From: a virus
Lineage: Duplodnaviria; Heunggongvirae; Uroviricota; Caudoviricetes
Reading direction: 5' to 3' (one strand)
DNA: 9,424 nt
Virus record (IMG/VR): IMGVR_UViG_2671180846_000014
How positions within the stretch are numbered: position 1 is the stretch's first letter; each line of letters begins with the position of its first letter. The position numbers and the translations under genes were made by a program. A model generated the notes under the pieces. The model had not been told where the DNA came from. It searched no databases and was given only the letters and a program-made list of their open reading frames with translations. Shown in pieces: positions 248 to 9,038 of the stretch.

Positions 248-324
248 TGCTTTTCGGNNNNNNNNNNNNNNNNNNNNNNNNNNNNNNNNNNNNNNNNNNN
301 NNNNNNNGAAGTAATACCCGCACG

Positions 325-670: not shown

Positions 671-700
671 ACCAGAAAAAACAAAACCCGCCGAAGCGGG
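671..700 (-). terminator. Rho-independent terminator (minus strand)
   Basis: Minus-strand RNA reads CCCGC-UUCG-GCGGG (GC stem, UUCG tetraloop) followed by UUUUGUUUUUUCUGG. On the plus strand the stem is preceded by an A-run, not followed by a U-run, so it is unidirectional. Confidence 0.7.
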
Positions 701-995
701 TTAAGTGCGGGTGCGTTGAGGATGCCTGACACATCAGCGGTGGCGAGGGATTTCTCCCCCGCCNNNNNNNNNNNNNNNNNNNNNNNNNNNNNNNNNNNNN
801 NNNNNNNNNNNNNTGGGCCTCAGATTAATGTTAAGCGTCTTGCAGGACGCGTAATGTTAACTGGGGCTTTTCTCTGTCTGCCTTACGGTGGCATGCCCGA
901 GGCAGACAGCCTCAAGCACCCGCAGCAATTCTACTTAACTCTCGCTTTACAGCAAACCGTTTTGCCCGATATGGGAATTCCCATACGGAATGAAT

Positions 996-1100
996 TCAGT
1001 TCCCCAGGCGCTCCATCAAAAACACAACCAGGCAGTAAACACCCACAACAGCAATAACAGCCAGAGCGCCTTCCATTACCAGTGAAATATCATCCGACAT
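996..1100 (-). CDS. small hydrophobic peptide (34 aa), single predicted TM helix
   Basis: Not in the ORF track (below its length cutoff). Minus-strand ATG at 1098-1100 is preceded by AAGGGAGGG with about 5 nt spacing. Translation MSDDISLVMEGALAVIAVVGVYCLVVFLMERLGN, stop TGA at 996-998. Confidence 0.4.
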   Translation of the reverse strand: MSDDISLVMEGALAVIAVVGVYCLVVFLMERLGN

Positions 1101-1209
1101 ATTCCCTCCCTTGGTGTGAATCCCGGCGAACGTTTTTACCCCCACCGACAAATAACATATACTAGAAAAGCAATAGCTATAGCAACGCCTGCAAATGCAT
1201 CTGGCCGGC

Positions 1210-1773
1210 TCATTGGTTCTCCCCCTGTGTCGCTTCTACTGCGATCTGACTGGCGTATTCGTTAATGGTAACGATAAGTTCTTGCTCGGCCTCATCCAGA
1301 CAACTACCGATACCTCGCCTGTCCACTTCAGAAGCATCGAAATCTGCACGAAGCCTGGCGACCTTCAGGATTGCGGACAACACCTCATCAGGGATTGCCG
1401 GAGAGTTGGTTGACGTTTCCGAGATTATCCGAAAATTATTGGTTGACGAACCCTTATTTTCCCGAAAGTTTCCAGCCTGAAGCATGGCGGCGCGGTGACA
1501 CCAGATAATCCAGCCAAGCGCCATATCCCATGCCATGTATTCTCTATCGCCATTTTTTGCTCTGCGGCGATCTACAGATTCCCCGAAACGCTTCTCCATA
1601 AATAATTCATAGGCTGCCCGTTCATCCGATACTGATGCCAGTGATGCCAGTGCAATTTTTAATGCGGTAAGCATGTTGTTTTGATCTTCATCGAGTCCGA
1701 ACGGTATTTCATCCCGTGATGACTCAATTCCGGTAATCGTGTACTGTAGCCATTCTTTGGTTAATTCAGTCAT
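1210..1773 (-). CDS. hypothetical protein (187 aa)
   Basis: Track ORF with ATG start at 1771-1773 and TGA at 1210-1212. Separated from the upstream gene by a 126-nt intergenic region. No recognisable family. No canonical SD; a hairpin sits 9 nt upstream of the ATG. Confidence 0.55.
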   Translation of the reverse strand: MTELTKEWLQYTITGIESSRDEIPFGLDEDQNNMLTALKIALASLASVSDERAAYELFMEKRFGESVDRRRAKNGDREYMAWDMALGWIIWCHRAAMLQAGNFRENKGSSTNNFRIISETSTNSPAIPDEVLSAILKVARLRADFDASEVDRRGIGSCLDEAEQELIVTINEYASQIAVEATQGENQ

Positions 1774-4285: not shown

Positions 4286-5081
4286 NNNNNNNNNNNNNNN
4301 NNNNNNNNNNNNNNNNNNNNNNNNNNNNNNNNNNNGTGAAAACCTTCCCCTCCGCCATCCAGTAATCCCGGAATGCGGCAAGCTCAGCAGGTGTAAACTC
4401 AGGCTCAGGCAGAGCCATACCCCACACTGCTGCCCGCTGTCGAAAATCCGGCGACGGTTGCCAGACTCCAGTCATCGGAAATTTCCCGATCGGTTCGCTC
4501 AGGCCGTCCAGGTATTCAGGTTCGGCTGTCTGCAACGACGCGTCATTCAACTCACCGGTCGTAGCACTCTCGCGCATGCGCGCGTTATGTGTGGGGTTTA
4601 ATTCTTTATCTGTATCTGTATCTGTCGTGATTTGTCGTGACATATGCGTGACGCGTCGTGACTCATCGTGACAATCAGTGTTCTGCTTCCGCAGTCTTTC
4701 CCGCTCCCGCTGCGCTCTCTTGCGCTCTGCCGGGGATTTTGCGGTTTGCGAAACATTACCGTTATCCTCCTTCATCACCTGGCGTTTTTCCCATCCGGAA
4801 ATAAGATCACCATCCAGAACTCGCCCCTGCATTGCATGCAAAATTGAATCAATCACGTCTTCCGTCACATCAAGCGCACTTGCTAAATCTTCCGTCGTGA
4901 CATCAATGTGACCACGTAGTGACACGCCGTGACATGTCGTGACATTTCGTGACGCACTCACCAGAAGGTGGATATACACCGCCATCACTGTTGCGATTGG
5001 CTGTCCTGAGACCCTGGCAATGGTTCGCCATTTGGGATCATTTGGCATGTCATGCCACAATCTGAGCCAGGCATTAGCCAT
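4286..5081 (-). CDS. replication initiator candidate (O-like by position and embedded iterons); 3' end hidden by masked run
   Basis: ATG at 5079-5081 (MANAWLRLWHDMPNDPKWRTIA...) with GAGGTGA upstream; the track's extra MS comes from a GTG. Frame is open to the N run. Immediately precedes the P-like gene. Contains two phased GTGAC repeat arrays. Family (DUF1376/YdaU-like?) is not certain from memory. Confidence 0.55.
4607..4672. repeat. iteron-like array 1: (TATCTG)x3 followed by five CGTGA(C) repeats at 10-11 bp phasing
   Basis: CGTGA starts at 4626, 4636, 4647, 4657, 4667; TATCTG at 4607, 4613, 4619. Lies in frame inside the O-like CDS (encodes ...RRVTHMSRQITTDTDTD...). Confidence 0.6.
4896..4953. 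repeat. iteron-like array 2: six GTGAC repeats at 10-11 bp phasing
   Basis: GTGAC starts at 4897, 4908, 4919, 4929, 4939, 4949, same orientation as array 1. One inverted GTCAC at 4864-4868. Inside the O-like CDS N-terminal region. Confidence 0.6.
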
Positions 5082-7140: not shown

Positions 7141-7340
7141 GGGTTATTCCTTCCCCCATTGAGGACACCGGGTTGTCAGGTTGACCATACGCTTAAGTGA
7201 CAACCCCGCTGCAACNNNNNNNNNNNNNNNNNNNNNNNNNNNNNNNNNNNNNNNNNNNNNNNNNNGGGTTATTCCTTCCCCAGTTGAGGACACCGGGTTG
7301 TCAGGTTGACCATACGCTTAAGTGACACCCCCGCTACAAC
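7141..7340 (+). repeat. two near-identical 75-bp copies (7141-7215 and 7266-7340) separated by a masked 50-nt run; each holds a 9-bp-stem hairpin
   Basis: GGGTTATTCCTTCCCCCATTGAGGACACCGGGTTGTCAGGTTGACCATACGCTTAAGTGACAACCCCGCTGCAAC versus the second copy with 4 substitutions. Internal inverted repeat GGGTTGTCA...TGACAACCC. Confidence 0.7.
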
Positions 7341-7356: not shown

Positions 7357-7415
7357 ATTCTGGTGACATTTGGCGGTATCAGTTTTACTCCGTGACTGCT
7401 CTGCCGCCCTTTTTT
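7357..7415 (+). ncRNA. dicF: DicF small RNA homolog (ftsZ-targeting prophage sRNA) with its intrinsic terminator
   Basis: ATTCTGGTGACATTTGGCGGTATCAGTTTTACTCCGTGACTGCTCTGCCGCCCTTTTTT matches my recollection of E. coli DicF with 2 differences in the 5' part. Ends in a GC stem (GGCGG...CCGCC) plus T6. Lies upstream of the dicB-like gene as in the Qin dicB operon. Confidence 0.7.
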
Positions 7416-7419
7416 AAAA

Positions 7420-7569
7420 GTGAATTTTGTGATGCGGTGAATGCGGCTCAGCGCACGCGGAACAGTTAAAACCAAAAACAGTGTTATGGGTGGATTCTCT
7501 GTATCCGGCGTTAATTGTTAACTGGTTAACGTCACCTGGAGGCACCAGGCACCGCATCACAAAATTCAT
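7420..7569 (+). other. long-range inverted repeat (19/20 nt arms at 7420-7439 and 7550-7569) bracketing the dicF-dicB spacer; candidate RNase III processing stem
   Basis: GTGAATTTTGTGATGCGGTG (7420-7439) is the reverse complement of CACCGCATCACAAAATTCAT (7550-7569) except for one terminal base. Smaller hairpins lie between (CGTTAA...TTAACG, CCTGG...CCAGG). Confidence 0.5.
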
Positions 7570-7585
7570 TGTTGAGGACGCGATA

Positions 7586-7774
7586 ATGGAAAAGTTATCA
7601 TGTAATGCCAGCACGTCTGAACTTCGTTTCGAAATTGGCGTTATCACTGGAGACAAAACATTTATTGAAGACGCCATTAAGCAGAGAAAACTCGAGCAGG
7701 ACCTGTTAAATGAAGTATGCATTCCTTCAATGCTGGCTCGTCTGGACCTGCTGCAAAAAGGATATAAACAATGA
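7586..7774 (+). CDS. dicB: DicB-like cell-division inhibitor (62 aa), copy 1
   Basis: ATG at 7586 (track ORF 7481..7774 trimmed). MEKLSCNASTSELRFEIGVITGDKTFIEDAIKQRKLEQDLLNEVCIPSMLARLDLLQKGYKQ resembles K-12 DicB as recalled (...NVNTSEGCFEIGV...FTEDAI...RK...LL...SMLARL...). Stop overlaps the ydfD-like start (ATGA). Confidence 0.8.
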   Translation: MEKLSCNASTSELRFEIGVITGDKTFIEDAIKQRKLEQDLLNEVCIPSMLARLDLLQKGYKQ

Positions 7775-7962
7775 ATACAACATTTGCACTCGTTCTGACA
7801 GTTTATCTTGTTTCCGGCGAATCTCTTGAGCTGGTGACTGGCTTATACGGTTCAATGAAAGAATGCATGGCTGCAGCAGCAGAACAAAAAATTCCCGGTA
7901 ACTGTTATCCGGTAGATAAAACTACTCACACTAATAATAACGAAATACCGGCAGGACTTTAA
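7771..7962 (+). CDS. ydfD: YdfD-like small membrane/lysis protein (63 aa), copy 1
   Basis: ATG at 7771; hydrophobic N-terminus FALVLTVYLVSG; C-terminal EQKIPGNCYPVDK...NNEIPAGL resembles Qin YdfD as recalled. Translationally coupled to the dicB-like gene. Confidence 0.75.
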   Translation: MNTTFALVLTVYLVSGESLELVTGLYGSMKECMAAAAEQKIPGNCYPVDKTTHTNNNEIPAGL

Positions 7963-8055
7963 AACAGCACCGTAATTAATATCCGGTTTCATTTTTATAT
8001 GCCAGCAATGGCAGGGATTTGTTCACCCTTAAATCTGTAATGAGGTTAAAACAAA

Positions 8056-8092
8056 ATGAGTAAAGTCTTTATTTGCGCCGCCATTCCGGACG
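8056..8092 (+). pseudogene. ydfE-like 5' fragment (12 codons, MSKVFICAAIPD) ending at masked run
   Basis: Identical to the first 37 nt of the ydfE-like gene at 9132. The track fuses it in frame through the N run to the type-2 dicB paralog, which is probably an artefact of the masked junction. Confidence 0.4.
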
Positions 8093-8142
8093 NNNNNNNN
8101 NNNNNNNNNNNNNNNNNNNNNNNNNNNNNNNNNNNNNNNNNN

Positions 8143-8313
8143 AACGTTAATACGTCTGAAGGTTGTTTTGATATTGGTGTTCTGCTCAGTAACCGGGAGT
8201 TTACGGAAGATGCCATTAAGATGAGAAAATATGAACCTTATCTTCTCAATGATAATTCCATACTTTCCAGAATTGCCCTTCTTGAACTTGGTATTATCGG
8301 AGAACAGCAGTGA
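8143..8313 (+). CDS. DicB paralog (diverged, type 2); 5' end hidden in masked run
   Basis: Visible part NVNTSEGCFDIGVLLSNREFTEDAIKMRKYEPYLLNDNSILSRIALLELGIIGEQQ, stop TGA at 8311-8313. Shares the NVNTSEGCF-IGV and FTEDAI-RK motifs with DicB but differs from copy 1 across much of its length. Confidence 0.6.
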   Translation, partial: NVNTSEGCFDIGVLLSNREFTEDAIKMRKYEPYLLNDNSILSRIALLELGIIGEQQ

Positions 8314-8498
8314 CTTCAGCATTTGCACTGGTGATGACCGTTTTTCTTATAACGGGTGAGCCACAAAATGTGATTACCGGAATTTATGACAGTAAGTCAT
8401 CCTGCATTCAGGTAAGGGACGAACAAAAAATCCCCGGTGAATGCCTCCCGTTAAAAAAAGTATCGCTGAACCTGAATAACGAAATACCGGCTGGATAA
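8310..8498 (+). CDS. YdfD paralog (diverged, type 2; 62 aa)
   Basis: GTG start at 8310 overlapping the upstream stop (GTGA). MTSAFALVMTVFLITGEPQNVITGIYDSKSSCIQVRDEQKIPGECLPLKKVSLNLNNEIPAG is diverged from copy 1 but shares the hydrophobic N-terminus and the EQKIPG...NNEIPAG C-terminus. Confidence 0.6.
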   Translation: MTSAFALVMTVFLITGEPQNVITGIYDSKSSCIQVRDEQKIPGECLPLKKVSLNLNNEIPAG

Positions 8499-8661
8499 CC
8501 CGCCAGCCATATTAACGCCATACCAACGGATTAAAAATGCCAGCAATGGCAGGGATTCGTTCACCCTGAAATCTGTAATNNNNNNNNNNNNNNNNNNNNN
8601 NNNNNNNNNNNNNNNNNNNNNNNNNNNNNGCATCACAAAATTCATTGTTGAGGACGCGATA

Positions 8662-8850
8662 ATGGAAAAGTTATCATGTAATGCCAGCACGTCTGAACTT
8701 CGTTTCGAAATTGGCGTTATCACTGGAGACAAAACATTTATTGAAGACGCCATTAAGCAGAGAAAACTCGAGCAGGACCTGTTAAATGAAGTATGCATTC
8801 CTTCAATGCTGGCTCGTCTGGACCTGCTGCAAAAAGGATATAAACAATGA
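8662..8850 (+). CDS. dicB: DicB-like cell-division inhibitor (62 aa), second type-1 copy
   Basis: Identical translation to 7586..7774; lies within direct-repeat copy C. Confidence 0.8.
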   Translation: MEKLSCNASTSELRFEIGVITGDKTFIEDAIKQRKLEQDLLNEVCIPSMLARLDLLQKGYKQ

Positions 8851-9038
8851 ATACAACATTTGCACTCGTTCTGACAGTTTATCTTGTTTCCGGCGAATCT
8901 CTTGAGCTGGTGACTGGCTTATACGGTTCAATGAAAGAATGCATGGCTGCAGCAGCAGAACAAAAAATTCCCGGTAACTGTTATCCGGTAGATAAAACTA
9001 CTCACACTAATAATAACGAAATACCGGCAGGACTTTAA
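8847..9038 (+). CDS. ydfD: YdfD-like small membrane/lysis protein (63 aa), second type-1 copy
   Basis: Identical translation to 7771..7962. Confidence 0.75.
   Translation: MNTTFALVLTVYLVSGESLELVTGLYGSMKECMAAAAEQKIPGNCYPVDKTTHTNNNEIPAGL

What the first reader, a model, noticed from the sequence alone, without database searches (positions are those of the whole stretch)
996..1100. Unlisted 34-aa single-TM peptide ORF with a strong SD: candidate small membrane toxin or kil-like gene
An ATG preceded by AAGGGAGGG encodes MSDDISLVMEGALAVIAVVGVYCLVVFLMERLGN, with an acidic N-terminus, a 20-residue hydrophobic helix and a short charged tail. That architecture is typical of type I toxins and phage membrane peptides. 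It lies in a 390-bp stretch without larger genes and is followed on the same strand by a hairpin (874-909) and a strong terminator (671-700).
Basis: partly seen in the sequence, partly recalled or inferred. Interest (0 to 1): 0.5.

Follow-up and report, generated by a model that had tools for sequence, protein, structure and literature searches.

The report
Small membrane peptide gene beside hokD

Summary
The ORF (window 996-1100, minus strand; SD AAGGGAGGG 3 nt before the ATG) is exactly as described. It is 100% identical to Sakai prophage Sp14 gene ECs_2755 / RefSeq WP_001278460.1, "hypothetical protein". It matches no Pfam, PHROG, NCBIfam or PADLOC family.

It is a real gene. Substitutions fall mainly on third codon positions (8/7/24; dN/dS about 0.29, p = 3e-4). 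Distant 29-30-aa homologues keep the frame at dS above 1. Published Ribo-seq in uninduced Sakai shows strong translation (LB: RNA RPKM 133, footprint RPKM 885, 95% coverage).

The "following" hairpin (874-909) and terminator (685-702) belong to a hok mRNA (Rfam RF01794). The hokD coding sequence lies under the N mask at 764-813.

A second, unannotated 25-aa hydrophobic ORF (1136-1213) sits just upstream and overlaps the preceding gene's stop (ATGA).

Across E. coli, these two micro-ORF families abut the hok promoter in three arrangements, while the outer flanks differ between loci.

No antisense partner or repressive leader was found, and the peptide is acidic and heavily translated in growing cells. 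A type I toxin reading is therefore unlikely. My best reading is a lysogen-expressed single-pass membrane microprotein that travels with, and may modulate, the hok cassette. Its function is untested.

The parts
996..1100 (-). ORF2: the 34-aa single-pass membrane peptide gene of the finding (= Sakai ECs_2755, RefSeq WP_001278460.1). The coordinates include the TGA stop.
   Evidence: dN/dS about 0.29, p = 3e-4, changes by codon position 8/7/24. Pairwise omega 0.16-0.6. Ribo-seq evidence in PMC5597208.
1104..1112 (-). Shine-Dalgarno AAGGGAGGG for ORF2, 3 nt before the ATG.
   Evidence: The core AAGGAGGGAATATG is kept in the divergent L008 lineage while the rest of the spacer diverges. PMC5597208 S4 Table lists an SD 3 bp upstream with deltaG -6.4.
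1136..1213 (-). ORF1: an unannotated 25-aa hydrophobic peptide gene (MSRPDAFAGVAIAIAFLVYVICRWG). Its ATG overlaps the TGA of the upstream gene (ATGA). Its own SD is GGGGGAG.
   Evidence: It is conserved as 25/27-aa variants with an in-frame 6-nt indel. Changes by codon position are 11/10/21; dN/dS about 0.45, p = 0.024. An ORF1-only arrangement exists in L055.
1210..1773 (-). Upstream 187-aa gene (= ECs_2756, hypothetical; PHROG 14306/660). Its stop is coupled to the ORF1 start.
966..988 (.). Palindrome just after the ORF2 stop. It is the 22-bp perfect palindrome CGATATGGGAATTCCCATATCG in most alleles; the window allele has lost one base. No T run follows on either strand.
   Evidence: The RNA fold is modest (z = -1.9). 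It is absent from the Evi/BL21-type loci.
928..955 (-). Inferred hok promoter: -35 TTGCTG (950-955), 16-nt spacer, -10 TAGAAT (928-933).
   Evidence: Read from the sequence. It sits 7 nt upstream of the first position of the Rfam hok-leader model. It is conserved in all hok-linked loci. It was not detected by the consensus scan, so it remains an inference.
814..921 (-). 5' leader of the hokD mRNA (also the Sok target region).
   Evidence: Rfam RF01794: 114.9 bits at L001 2380-2554 and 59.7 bits at window 732-921.
764..813 (.). A 50-N mask that replaces 224 nt of real sequence (L001 2488-2711). The hidden stretch includes the rest of the leader and the complete hokD CDS (51 aa).
685..763 (-). 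3' untranslated end of the hokD mRNA, with its intrinsic terminator (stem 685-702, then TTTTGTTTTTTC).

Best explanation
ORF2 is a genuine protein-coding gene for a 34-aa single-pass inner-membrane microprotein. It is the second of two tandem hydrophobic micro-ORFs (ORF1 25 aa, ORF2 34 aa) that follow an accessory gene of a lambdoid prophage, and it lies directly upstream of the promoter of a hokD/sok type I toxin-antitoxin locus.

Shown:
- The frame is under purifying selection.
- It is transcribed and efficiently translated in uninduced lysogens.
- It and its distant 29-30-aa relatives are almost always found abutting a hok promoter, while the genes on both outer sides differ from locus to locus.

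Inferred:
- The peptide inserts into the inner membrane as one helix (conserved core ALA-x-x-AV-x-x-x-YCL-x-V-x-L-M-D/E-R-L).
- It acts by helix-helix contact with a partner rather than as a toxin. The most likely partner is Hok itself, with ORF2 dampening or timing Hok action so that a lysogen can carry several hok copies. Failing that, the partner is a host membrane protein.

ORF2 is an accessory of the hok cassette. It is not a second type I toxin.
For: Coding and selection:
- It is the only open frame of the six, with a strong SD.
- Across 25 distinct alleles there are 16 non-synonymous and 19 synonymous changes: dN/dS about 0.29, p = 3e-4. The other forward frames give about 1.2-1.3.
- Changes by codon position are 8/7/24.
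- Pairwise omega is 0.16-0.6 even at dS above 1. The Evi/BL21 subfamily gives omega about 0.35, p = 0.006.
- The stop position and frame are kept in every lineage.

Expression (PMC5597208, S2/S4/S9 Tables):
- ECs_2755 in LB: RNA RPKM 132.6, footprint RPKM 885.0, RCV 6.79, coverage 0.95.
- In BHI: 167.7 / 116.7 / 0.76 / 0.99.
- The upstream gene ECs2758 has RNA RPKM of only about 7.
- The authors predict inner membrane, one TM helix.

Membrane helix: the Kyte-Doolittle 19-residue mean is 2.7-3.0 in all family members.

Linkage to hok:
- 26 of 27 evaluable loci from a context-blind metagenome pattern scan have a hok leader downstream.
- 669 of 676 E. coli records that carry the ORFs have at least one copy contiguous with a hok leader.
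- The distant 29-30-aa homologues in phages Evi, mEp460_ev081 and Tritos, in L053, in strain G3/10 and in BL21(DE3) all end 10-40 nt before a hok -35.
- That subfamily is present in 1928 of 5426 genomes, and in 1679 it is contiguous with a hok leader.
- Upstream neighbours differ: the 187-aa gene, DUF551, ORF6N, DUF977, an acetyltransferase on the other strand, IS5.
- Neighbours downstream of hok also differ: DUF968, HTH/ImmA, Doc, methyltransferases, rem, Q.
- ORF1 alone also abuts hok in another arrangement.
Against: - There is no direct evidence of any interaction with Hok.
- hok/sok loci on plasmids and at other chromosomal sites lack these ORFs, so Hok/Sok does not need them.
- In some loci hok has been replaced by ibrAB-like genes (PAPS_reduct/DUF3440), yet both micro-ORFs remain intact there.
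- ORF2 and hok are so close that their linkage could be simple hitch-hiking.
- No consensus promoter was found for the lysogen-state transcript.
- Sakai carries three copies, so the published read counts may be pooled across copies.
- The dN/dS counts are not tree-corrected and rest on few independent lineages.
Confidence: 0.4

Rival explanations
1. ORF2 is an independent lysogen-expressed 'moron' microprotein whose function has nothing to do with hok. It might give superinfection exclusion or modulate a host transporter, sensor or divisome protein, in the way AcrZ, MgrB, SidA or HK97 gp15 act. It sits next to hok only because the two were inherited as one short block.
For: - It is expressed in uninduced lysogens at about 20 times the RNA level of an upstream early gene.
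- It remains intact where hok has been lost.
- It lies in the accessory-gene region of the prophage, where neighbours are mosaic.
- hok works without it elsewhere.
Against: - The adjacency survives dS above 1 and complete turnover of both outer flanks, in three architectures.
- In a blind scan 26 of 27 loci are hok-linked.
- The loci without hok still carry a decayed hok promoter, so the loss is secondary.
- There is no hit to any defence or exclusion family.
Confidence: 0.3
2. One reading: ORF2 is itself a small membrane toxin, either a type I toxin held in check by an antisense RNA or a kil-like host-killing peptide of the early operon.
For: - Its size, single hydrophobic helix and prophage location match.
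- It is adjacent to a real type I locus.
- Many small hydrophobic peptides are toxic when overproduced (general knowledge).
Against: - It is strongly translated in healthy exponential cultures: RCV 6.79, footprint RPKM 885.
- The SD is exposed and there is no long leader.
- There are no antisense promoter-like sites over the ORF, and promoter-like hits are at chance level.
- No Rfam family other than hok/sok was found.
- There is no similarity to Hok or to any toxin model.
- The peptide is net acidic at -3. Known type I toxins are generally cationic (own knowledge).
Confidence: 0.12
3. ORF2 is a translated but functionless by-product. In this view a short frame is kept open by constraints on the DNA or RNA (for example upstream elements of the hok promoter), and ribosomes load simply because an SD-ATG happens to be present.
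For: - The flanking non-coding DNA is about as conserved as the ORF within the window lineage: 13 changes in 35 spacer columns, 17 in 75 post-stop columns and 39 in 102 ORF columns.
- The family is confined to E. coli. There were no hits in 185,579 species-representative genomes.
Against: - The third-position bias and dN/dS of about 0.3 are specific to this frame. The only other frame that shares them is the antisense frame whose wobble positions coincide, and that frame has stops.
- The distant subfamily keeps the peptide core while the DNA is only about 65% identical.
- The SD is conserved even where the surrounding spacer diverges.
Confidence: 0.08
4. ORF1 and ORF2 are two halves of a single 74-aa two-helix protein. 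It would be produced by -1 ribosomal slippage on the G5 run at the ORF1 stop (U GGG GGU AA), or by phase-variable gain of a G.
For: - 74-aa fusions exist in public data (P0005, P0008, P0009). They arise from one extra G in the G5 run.
- The 13-codon spacer is open in the ORF2 frame.
Against: - Fusions were seen on only about 5 contigs, against more than 1000 for the split form, which is what homopolymer errors would produce.
- The L008 lineage has no G run and has an in-frame TAA between the ORFs.
- ORF2 has its own strong, conserved SD.
- ORF1-only and ORF2-only loci both exist.
- An open 13-codon stretch is expected by chance about half the time.
Confidence: 0.03

Closest known systems
Hok/Gef family type I toxins with Sok antisense RNA (Pfam PF01848; Rfam RF01794), including the hokD locus 75 nt downstream and hokW-sokW of Sakai Sp5 (PMC8621323)
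   Same: A small single-helix inner-membrane peptide, carried by E. coli lambdoid prophages, in the same cassette and on the same strand.
   Different: - No sequence relationship: no Pfam hit at E <= 1 and hhalign probability 1.5%.
- 34 aa, with no periplasmic C-terminal domain.
- Acidic rather than basic N-terminus.
- No overlapping mok-like frame.
- No long folded leader, no fbi/tac pairing and no Sok-like antisense.
- It is translated freely in growing cells, whereas Hok translation is silenced.
Other E. coli type I toxins (Ldr, Ibs, TisB, ShoB, Zor, DinQ) - from general knowledge
   Same: Peptides under 60 aa made of one hydrophobic helix.
   Different: Those have their own promoter, a structured 5' UTR that hides the SD, a dedicated antisense or divergent sRNA, and very low translation in unstressed cells. 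None of these features was found here.
Small regulatory membrane proteins that bind larger membrane proteins (AcrZ, MgrB, MgtS, PmrR, KdpF, CydX; Caulobacter SidA) - from general knowledge
   Same: 25-50 aa, single helix, translated in normal growth. Their activity resides in the helix and a few flanking residues. This is the mode of action I infer for ORF2.
   Different: No homology (NCBIfam and Pfam negative). ORF2 is prophage-borne and confined to E. coli. No partner is known.
Prophage 'moron' membrane proteins expressed in the lysogen (HK97 gp15 superinfection exclusion; lambda SieB/Rex class; the DicB and YdfD small proteins of Qin) - general knowledge and PMC6832061
   Same: An accessory small gene in a lambdoid prophage that is expressed without induction.
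   Different: Much smaller. No recognisable promoter-plus-terminator unit of its own. No hit to PHROG or PADLOC families.
Entericidin EcnA/EcnB: tandem small envelope peptides forming an antidote/toxin pair (general knowledge)
   Same: Two adjacent genes for very small hydrophobic peptides.
   Different: The entericidins are lipoproteins with a lipobox. ORF1 and ORF2 have I or Y at the position before the Cys, so they have no lipobox (read from the sequences).

Membership tests
Type I toxin-antitoxin toxin | Small hydrophobic, membrane-active peptide | tested here: met
   34 aa; the Kyte-Doolittle 19-residue mean is 2.72 over residues 11-29. PMC5597208 S9 Table predicts inner membrane with one TM helix.
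Type I toxin-antitoxin toxin | Cognate antisense or adjacent sRNA antitoxin that base-pairs with the toxin mRNA | tested here: inconclusive
   No promoter-like site was found antisense to 996-1112, and the overall counts are at chance level. The only Rfam hit in the region is the hok/sok element downstream. Absence of an unknown sRNA cannot be proved without strand-specific RNA data.
Type I toxin-antitoxin toxin | Own promoter and a long structured 5' UTR that keeps the SD sequestered, with translation off in growing cells | tested here: not met
   The ORF starts 35 nt after the ORF1 stop and its SD is 3 nt upstream. No promoter was found within 400 nt. Published RCV is 6.79 with footprint RPKM 885 in exponential LB culture.
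Type I toxin-antitoxin toxin | Growth arrest or membrane damage on expression | not testable with these tools
   This needs inducible expression. Native-level translation in healthy cultures argues against strong toxicity.
Hok/Gef (PF01848) | Sequence match to the HOK_GEF profile, including the conserved C-terminal periplasmic domain | tested here: not met
   No Pfam hit at E <= 1. hhalign against HokD aligns only 9 columns, with probability 1.5%.
Hok/Gef (PF01848) | mok-type overlapping reading frame, a Sok target and 5'-3' fold-back elements in the mRNA | tested here: not met
   The RF01794 model begins 75 nt downstream of the ORF2 stop (window 921) and does not cover the ORF.
Kil-like early-operon host-killing proteins (lambda Kil, Rac KilR, Qin DicB) | Sequence membership of one of those families | tested here: not met
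   Pfam, PHROG and NCBIfam give nothing for the peptide. The DicB-like genes of this same window lie elsewhere, at 7481-9038.
Kil-like early-operon host-killing proteins (lambda Kil, Rac KilR, Qin DicB) | Expression confined to the induced prophage (repressor-controlled early transcript) | tested here: not met
   RNA RPKM is 133-168 in three uninduced conditions, against about 7 for the upstream early-region gene ECs2758. The caveat is that Sakai has three copies of the ORF.
Small single-pass membrane microproteins of prophages (descriptive class, not a curated family) | Translated ORF of 50 codons or fewer, one predicted TM helix, purifying selection, prophage location | tested here: met
   The prophage context is cI/cro/cII/O in the window and Sakai Sp14.

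The most novel reading that the evidence does not exclude
Prophage hok loci of E. coli are three- or four-component cassettes. One or two constitutively translated micro-membrane peptides (ORF1 and/or ORF2) encoded immediately upstream of the hok promoter would act at the protein level on Hok, as an immunity-like damper or as a timer of Hok-assisted lysis. That would add a protein layer to what is regarded as a purely RNA-controlled type I system. It would also imply that about a third or more of E. coli genomes, BL21(DE3) included, carry an unannotated member.
Probability: 0.15. Interest if true: 0.7.

Novelty: new member of a known kind. Interest (0 to 1): 0.35.

Why it matters
The gene itself is not new. 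It is annotated and already has ribosome-profiling support, so as originally stated (an unlisted toxin candidate) the finding is largely explained.

Three things are worth keeping:
- Its upstream partner ORF1 and the 29-30-aa relatives of ORF2 are almost never annotated, although they occur in roughly 1600-1900 of 5426 complete E. coli genomes, including BL21(DE3).
- Two unrelated micro-ORF families are both found butted against the hok promoter while everything around them is reshuffled. This is a cheap, testable lead on whether type I Hok toxins have protein-level partners.
- The case illustrates an artefact. A masked neighbour (hokD) made RNA elements of one gene look like the transcription unit of another.

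Tried and rejected
- Family libraries (Pfam, PHROGs, NCBIfam, PADLOC) for ORF1, ORF2 and the Evi-type peptide gave only chance-level hits: ATP synthase c at E = 0.053 and Cmr5 at E = 0.027.
The 51-aa TTG-extended frame worked.
- The cluster look-up placed the peptide in a cluster with xanthine dehydrogenases. I treat this as a clustering artefact.
- The whole-library HMM search found 14 hits. All but the weakest (P0052, a 4211-aa protein at E = 3.4e-4 with no matched stretch) are alleles or fragments of this family, so no distant relatives were found.
- Two scans of the species-representative genomes (peptide patterns, then a DNA pattern) found nothing. The family therefore appears confined to E. 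coli strains that are not species representatives, plus gut metagenomes.
- blastn against INPHARED phages found nothing for the ORFs. Only tblastn revealed the 30-aa relatives.
- The idea that ORF2 is a degenerate mini-Hok was rejected. A HokD homologue search meant to build a diverse Hok profile returned only near-identical sequences and was not used.
- A lipoprotein reading was rejected because there is no lipobox.
- Consensus and relaxed sigma-70 scans found no convincing promoter for the ORFs on the minus strand.
- The post-ORF palindrome is not a canonical terminator: it has no T run and its fold z-score is -1.9.
- A literature search for ECs2755 in main texts gave nothing. The hokW-sokW paper and the Pro-SMP paper do not mention the upstream ORFs. 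ORF1 is not among the 465 novel Sakai genes of PMC5597208, whose cut-off was 30 aa.
- Structure prediction was not run. A 34-residue hydrophobic helix would not discriminate between the hypotheses.

Full report
**1. What is at the coordinates**

On the minus strand of the window an ATG at 1100 is preceded by AAGGGAGGG (1112-1104). It opens a 34-codon frame, MSDDISLVMEGALAVIAVVGVYCLVVFLMERLGN, that ends with TGA at 998-996. It is the only one of the six frames that is open across 996-1100. Residues 11-29 form a strongly hydrophobic stretch (Kyte-Doolittle 19-residue mean 2.72), and the net charge is -3. The hairpin at 874-909 and the terminator (stem 685-702 plus a T run) also exist.

**2. It is already annotated, and the window hides its neighbour**

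Megablast against complete E. coli genomes gives 100% identical matches in EHEC/O26 prophages. In O26:H11 11368 the ORF is WP_001278460.1, "hypothetical protein". In O157:H7 Sakai it is ECs_2755 of prophage Sp14.

The matching public stretch is 174 nt longer than the query. The 50-N run at 764-813 replaces 224 nt (L001 2488-2711), which contain the complete hokD gene.

Rfam's hok/sok model RF01794 scores 114.9 bits on the unmasked homologue. The match starts 75 nt after the ORF stop and runs to the hokD ATG. Even the masked window reaches 59.7 bits at 732-921.

The "strong terminator" is the 3' end of the hok mRNA. Neither is evidence for a transcription unit belonging to the 34-aa ORF.

**3. 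Is the ORF a real gene?**

The peptide matches no family in Pfam, PHROGs, NCBIfam or PADLOC.

Homologous DNA was collected from four sources:
- E. coli genomes;
- contigs that encode allelic peptides;
- a context-blind degenerate DNA pattern scan of metagenomes;
- a tblastn search of phage genomes.

Within the "window-type" lineage, 25 distinct alleles show 16 non-synonymous and 19 synonymous changes. That gives dN/dS of about 0.29 (binomial p = 3e-4), whereas the two other forward frames give about 1.2-1.3. Changes by codon position are 8/7/24.

A divergent human-gut copy (L008-L011) keeps the frame, the SD and the stop while the inter-ORF spacer diverges.

Distant 29-30-aa relatives (for example MVLVLKCALAIAAVMAIYCLAVVLMDRLSD) occur, unannotated, in several places:
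- phages Evi, mEp460_ev081 and Tritos;
- an Escherichia assembly (L053);
- strain G3/10 and BL21(DE3).

Pairwise Nei-Gojobori omega is 0.16-0.6 throughout, including pairs with dS above 1. Within the distant subfamily omega is about 0.35, p = 0.006.

The conserved core is the helix plus a C-terminal L-M-(D/E)-R-L motif. The acidic N-terminus (MSDDIS) is lineage-specific.

A search of 1.84 billion representative proteins with a profile found 14 hits. All but the weakest (P0052, a 4211-aa protein at E = 3.4e-4 with no matched stretch) are alleles or fragments of this family. Two scans of 185,579 species-representative genomes found nothing. The family is therefore narrow and essentially confined to E. 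coli.

These counts are not tree-corrected and rest on a handful of lineages. The direction of the signal is nevertheless the same in three independent comparisons.

**4. Experimental support from the literature**

Hücker et al. 2017 (PLoS One, PMC5597208) used ECs2755 as one of the 250 shortest annotated Sakai genes with RCV of at least 0.25. Their S2 Table gives the following values:

| Condition | RNA RPKM | Footprint RPKM | RCV | Coverage |
| --- | --- | --- | --- | --- |
| LB, 37 °C | 132.6 | 885.0 | 6.79 | 0.95 |
| BHI | 167.7 | 116.7 | 0.76 | 0.99 |
| BHI stress | 164.6 | 3.8 | 0.02 | 0.65 |

The mean RCV of that control group in LB is 1.55. S4 lists an SD 3 bp upstream (deltaG -6.4) and classifies the gene as "real". 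S9 predicts inner membrane with one TM helix. ECs2758, three genes upstream, has RNA RPKM of only about 7 in the same data.

The peptide is thus transcribed and efficiently translated in uninduced, growing lysogens. One caveat is that Sakai has three copies of the ORF, so reads may be shared between them.

I found no consensus promoter on the minus strand within 400 nt. The origin of this transcript is unexplained.

**5. What surrounds it**

Immediately upstream is a second, unannotated ORF (window 1136-1213, MSRPDAFAGVAIAIAFLVYVICRWG). Its ATG overlaps the TGA of the preceding 187-aa gene (ATGA), and it has its own SD. It is conserved as 25- or 27-aa variants that differ by an in-frame 6-nt indel. 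Changes by codon position are 11/10/21, and dN/dS is about 0.45 (p = 0.024).

Homology between lineages begins just at the ORF1 SD, although the upstream gene differs (the 187-aa gene or DUF551).

After the ORF2 stop comes a palindrome, which is a 22-bp perfect palindrome in most alleles. It has no T run on either strand. The hok promoter follows: -35 TTGCTG at 950-955 and -10 TAGAAT at 928-933. This promoter is inferred from position and conservation, not detected by the scan.

Rare 74-aa ORF1-ORF2 fusions in public data come from one extra G in the G5 run at the ORF1 stop. They appear on a handful of contigs against more than 1000 for the split form. I read them as homopolymer errors or sporadic mutants.

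**6. Linkage to hok**

In the blind metagenome scan, 26 of 27 evaluable loci carry a hok leader right after ORF2. In complete E. coli genomes, 669 of 676 records with the ORFs have at least one hok-linked copy.

The exceptions carry ibrAB-like genes (PAPS_reduct/DUF3440) instead. They still contain a decayed copy of the hok promoter, so hok was lost secondarily.

All the distant 29-30-aa homologues end 10-40 nt before a hok -35. That subfamily is present in 1928 of 5426 genomes, and in 1679 of them it is contiguous with a hok leader.

A third arrangement has ORF1 alone abutting the hok promoter (L055). ORF1-type sequence is present in 1613 genomes. In 1116 genomes it is joined into one place with a hok leader, a count that may include the window-type arrangement. 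In the window type, the segment carrying ORF2 and the palindrome is bracketed by a direct repeat, GGGTAAAAACG.

Meanwhile the genes on both outer sides are different in almost every context examined. hok loci on plasmids and at other chromosomal sites lack the ORFs. The dependence is therefore asymmetric: the micro-ORFs are rarely without hok, whereas hok is often without them.

**7. Interpretation**

The type I toxin or kil-like reading fails on the features that could be tested:
- there is no leader of its own;
- there is no antisense candidate;
- there is no similarity to Hok or to other toxin models;
- the peptide is net acidic;
- above all, it is heavily translated in healthy cells.

I therefore read ORF2 as a lysogen-expressed single-pass inner-membrane microprotein, paired with ORF1, that belongs to an extended hok cassette. 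The most economical mechanism is helix-helix binding to a membrane partner.

The persistent, asymmetric adjacency makes Hok the leading candidate partner, with ORF2 as a damper or timer of Hok action. This step is inference only (confidence about 0.4). An unrelated moron function is nearly as likely (about 0.3). Toxicity on overexpression is untested (about 0.12 for a toxin role).

**8. Novelty and score**

The gene is annotated and has published translation evidence, so the finding as stated is mostly explained and the toxin label is not supported. Two things are new here:
- the recognition of a narrow, largely unannotated family (plus the ORF1 family) that is widespread in E. coli, including BL21(DE3);
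- its systematic placement against the hok promoter.

I rate it as a new member of a known kind (small prophage membrane microproteins), with interest 0.35. The most novel reading not excluded is a protein-level partner of a type I toxin, with probability about 0.15.

Noticed in passing
window 1136-1213 (minus strand): An unannotated 25-aa hydrophobic ORF (ORF1) is translationally coupled (ATGA) to the 187-aa gene upstream. It is conserved with an in-frame 6-nt indel and a third-position substitution bias. The related 27-aa form is present in 1613 of 5426 complete E. coli genomes.
   Followed up: yes
window 258-307, 764-813, 4286-4335, 7216-7265, 8093-8142, 8580-8629: There are six runs of exactly 50 N. 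The one at 764-813 stands for 224 nt of real sequence containing hokD, so window coordinates are compressed there. The content of the other five was not checked.
   Followed up: partly
L057 788-877 (E. coli BL21(DE3), NC_012892.2 around 1,591,4xx): BL21(DE3) and E. coli C carry an unannotated 29-aa homologue (VLVLKCTLAIVAVMAIYCLVIVLMDHLSD, GTG start, AGGAG SD) between a DUF977 gene and the hokD promoter. The same subfamily is unannotated in nearly all of the 1928 genomes that have it.
   Followed up: partly
window 966-988; L004 and others: A 22-bp perfect palindrome, CGATATGGGAATTCCCATATCG, lies between the ORF2 stop and the hok -35. It has no T run on either strand and is absent from Evi/BL21-type loci. 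The ORF2-plus-palindrome segment is bracketed by a direct repeat, GGGTAAAAACG. Its role (protein site, RNA end or insertion scar) is unknown.
   Followed up: partly
L020 1501-1725; proteins P0005, P0008, P0009: Rare 74-aa ORF1-ORF2 fusions are created by one extra G in the G5 run at the ORF1 stop. A -1 slip on U GGG GGU AA would give the same product from the wild-type mRNA. This is probably sequencing error or sporadic mutation.
   Followed up: partly
L012, L017, L020 (about 1600-2420 of each locus): In some E. coli, the micro-ORF pair is followed by convergent ibrAB-like genes (a 214-aa protein plus a PAPS_reduct/DUF3440 protein) instead of hok. Homology to hok loci stops at about the hok transcription start, and the -10 is mutated (TAGAAT to TAGATG).
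   Followed up: partly
window 7358-7409 (+) and 7481-9038 (+): A DicF sRNA (Rfam RF00039, 77 bits) is followed by three tandem copies of a two-gene unit: a DicB-like 62-aa protein plus a 62/63-aa protein with a hydrophobic N-terminus that resembles Qin YdfD (resemblance from memory, not tested). Two of the units are 100% identical over 300 nt.
   Followed up: no
window 7141-7215 and 7266-7340 (+): A 75-nt direct repeat (95% identical) flanks one of the N masks, just upstream of DicF. Its nature is unknown.
   Followed up: no
window 996-1500 (minus strand); PMC5597208 S2 Table: ECs2755 RNA is about 20-fold higher than ECs2758 in uninduced Sakai, yet no consensus sigma-70 promoter is found within 400 nt upstream. 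The source of the lysogen-state transcript is unexplained.
   Followed up: partly
L058 728-853 (E. coli ATCC 8739) and L054 about 930-990: ATCC 8739 has an unrelated hydrophobic small ORF ending about 90 nt before a hok leader. L054 keeps only the last few bases of ORF2 plus the palindrome, in front of a degraded hok. Both suggest repeated turnover at this junction.
   Followed up: no
L001 2713-2794 (= window about 681-762, minus strand): The hok mRNA 3' end gives a sub-threshold Rfam match to IsrK (27.2 bits against a gathering score of 50). This is probably only terminator-like similarity.
   Followed up: no
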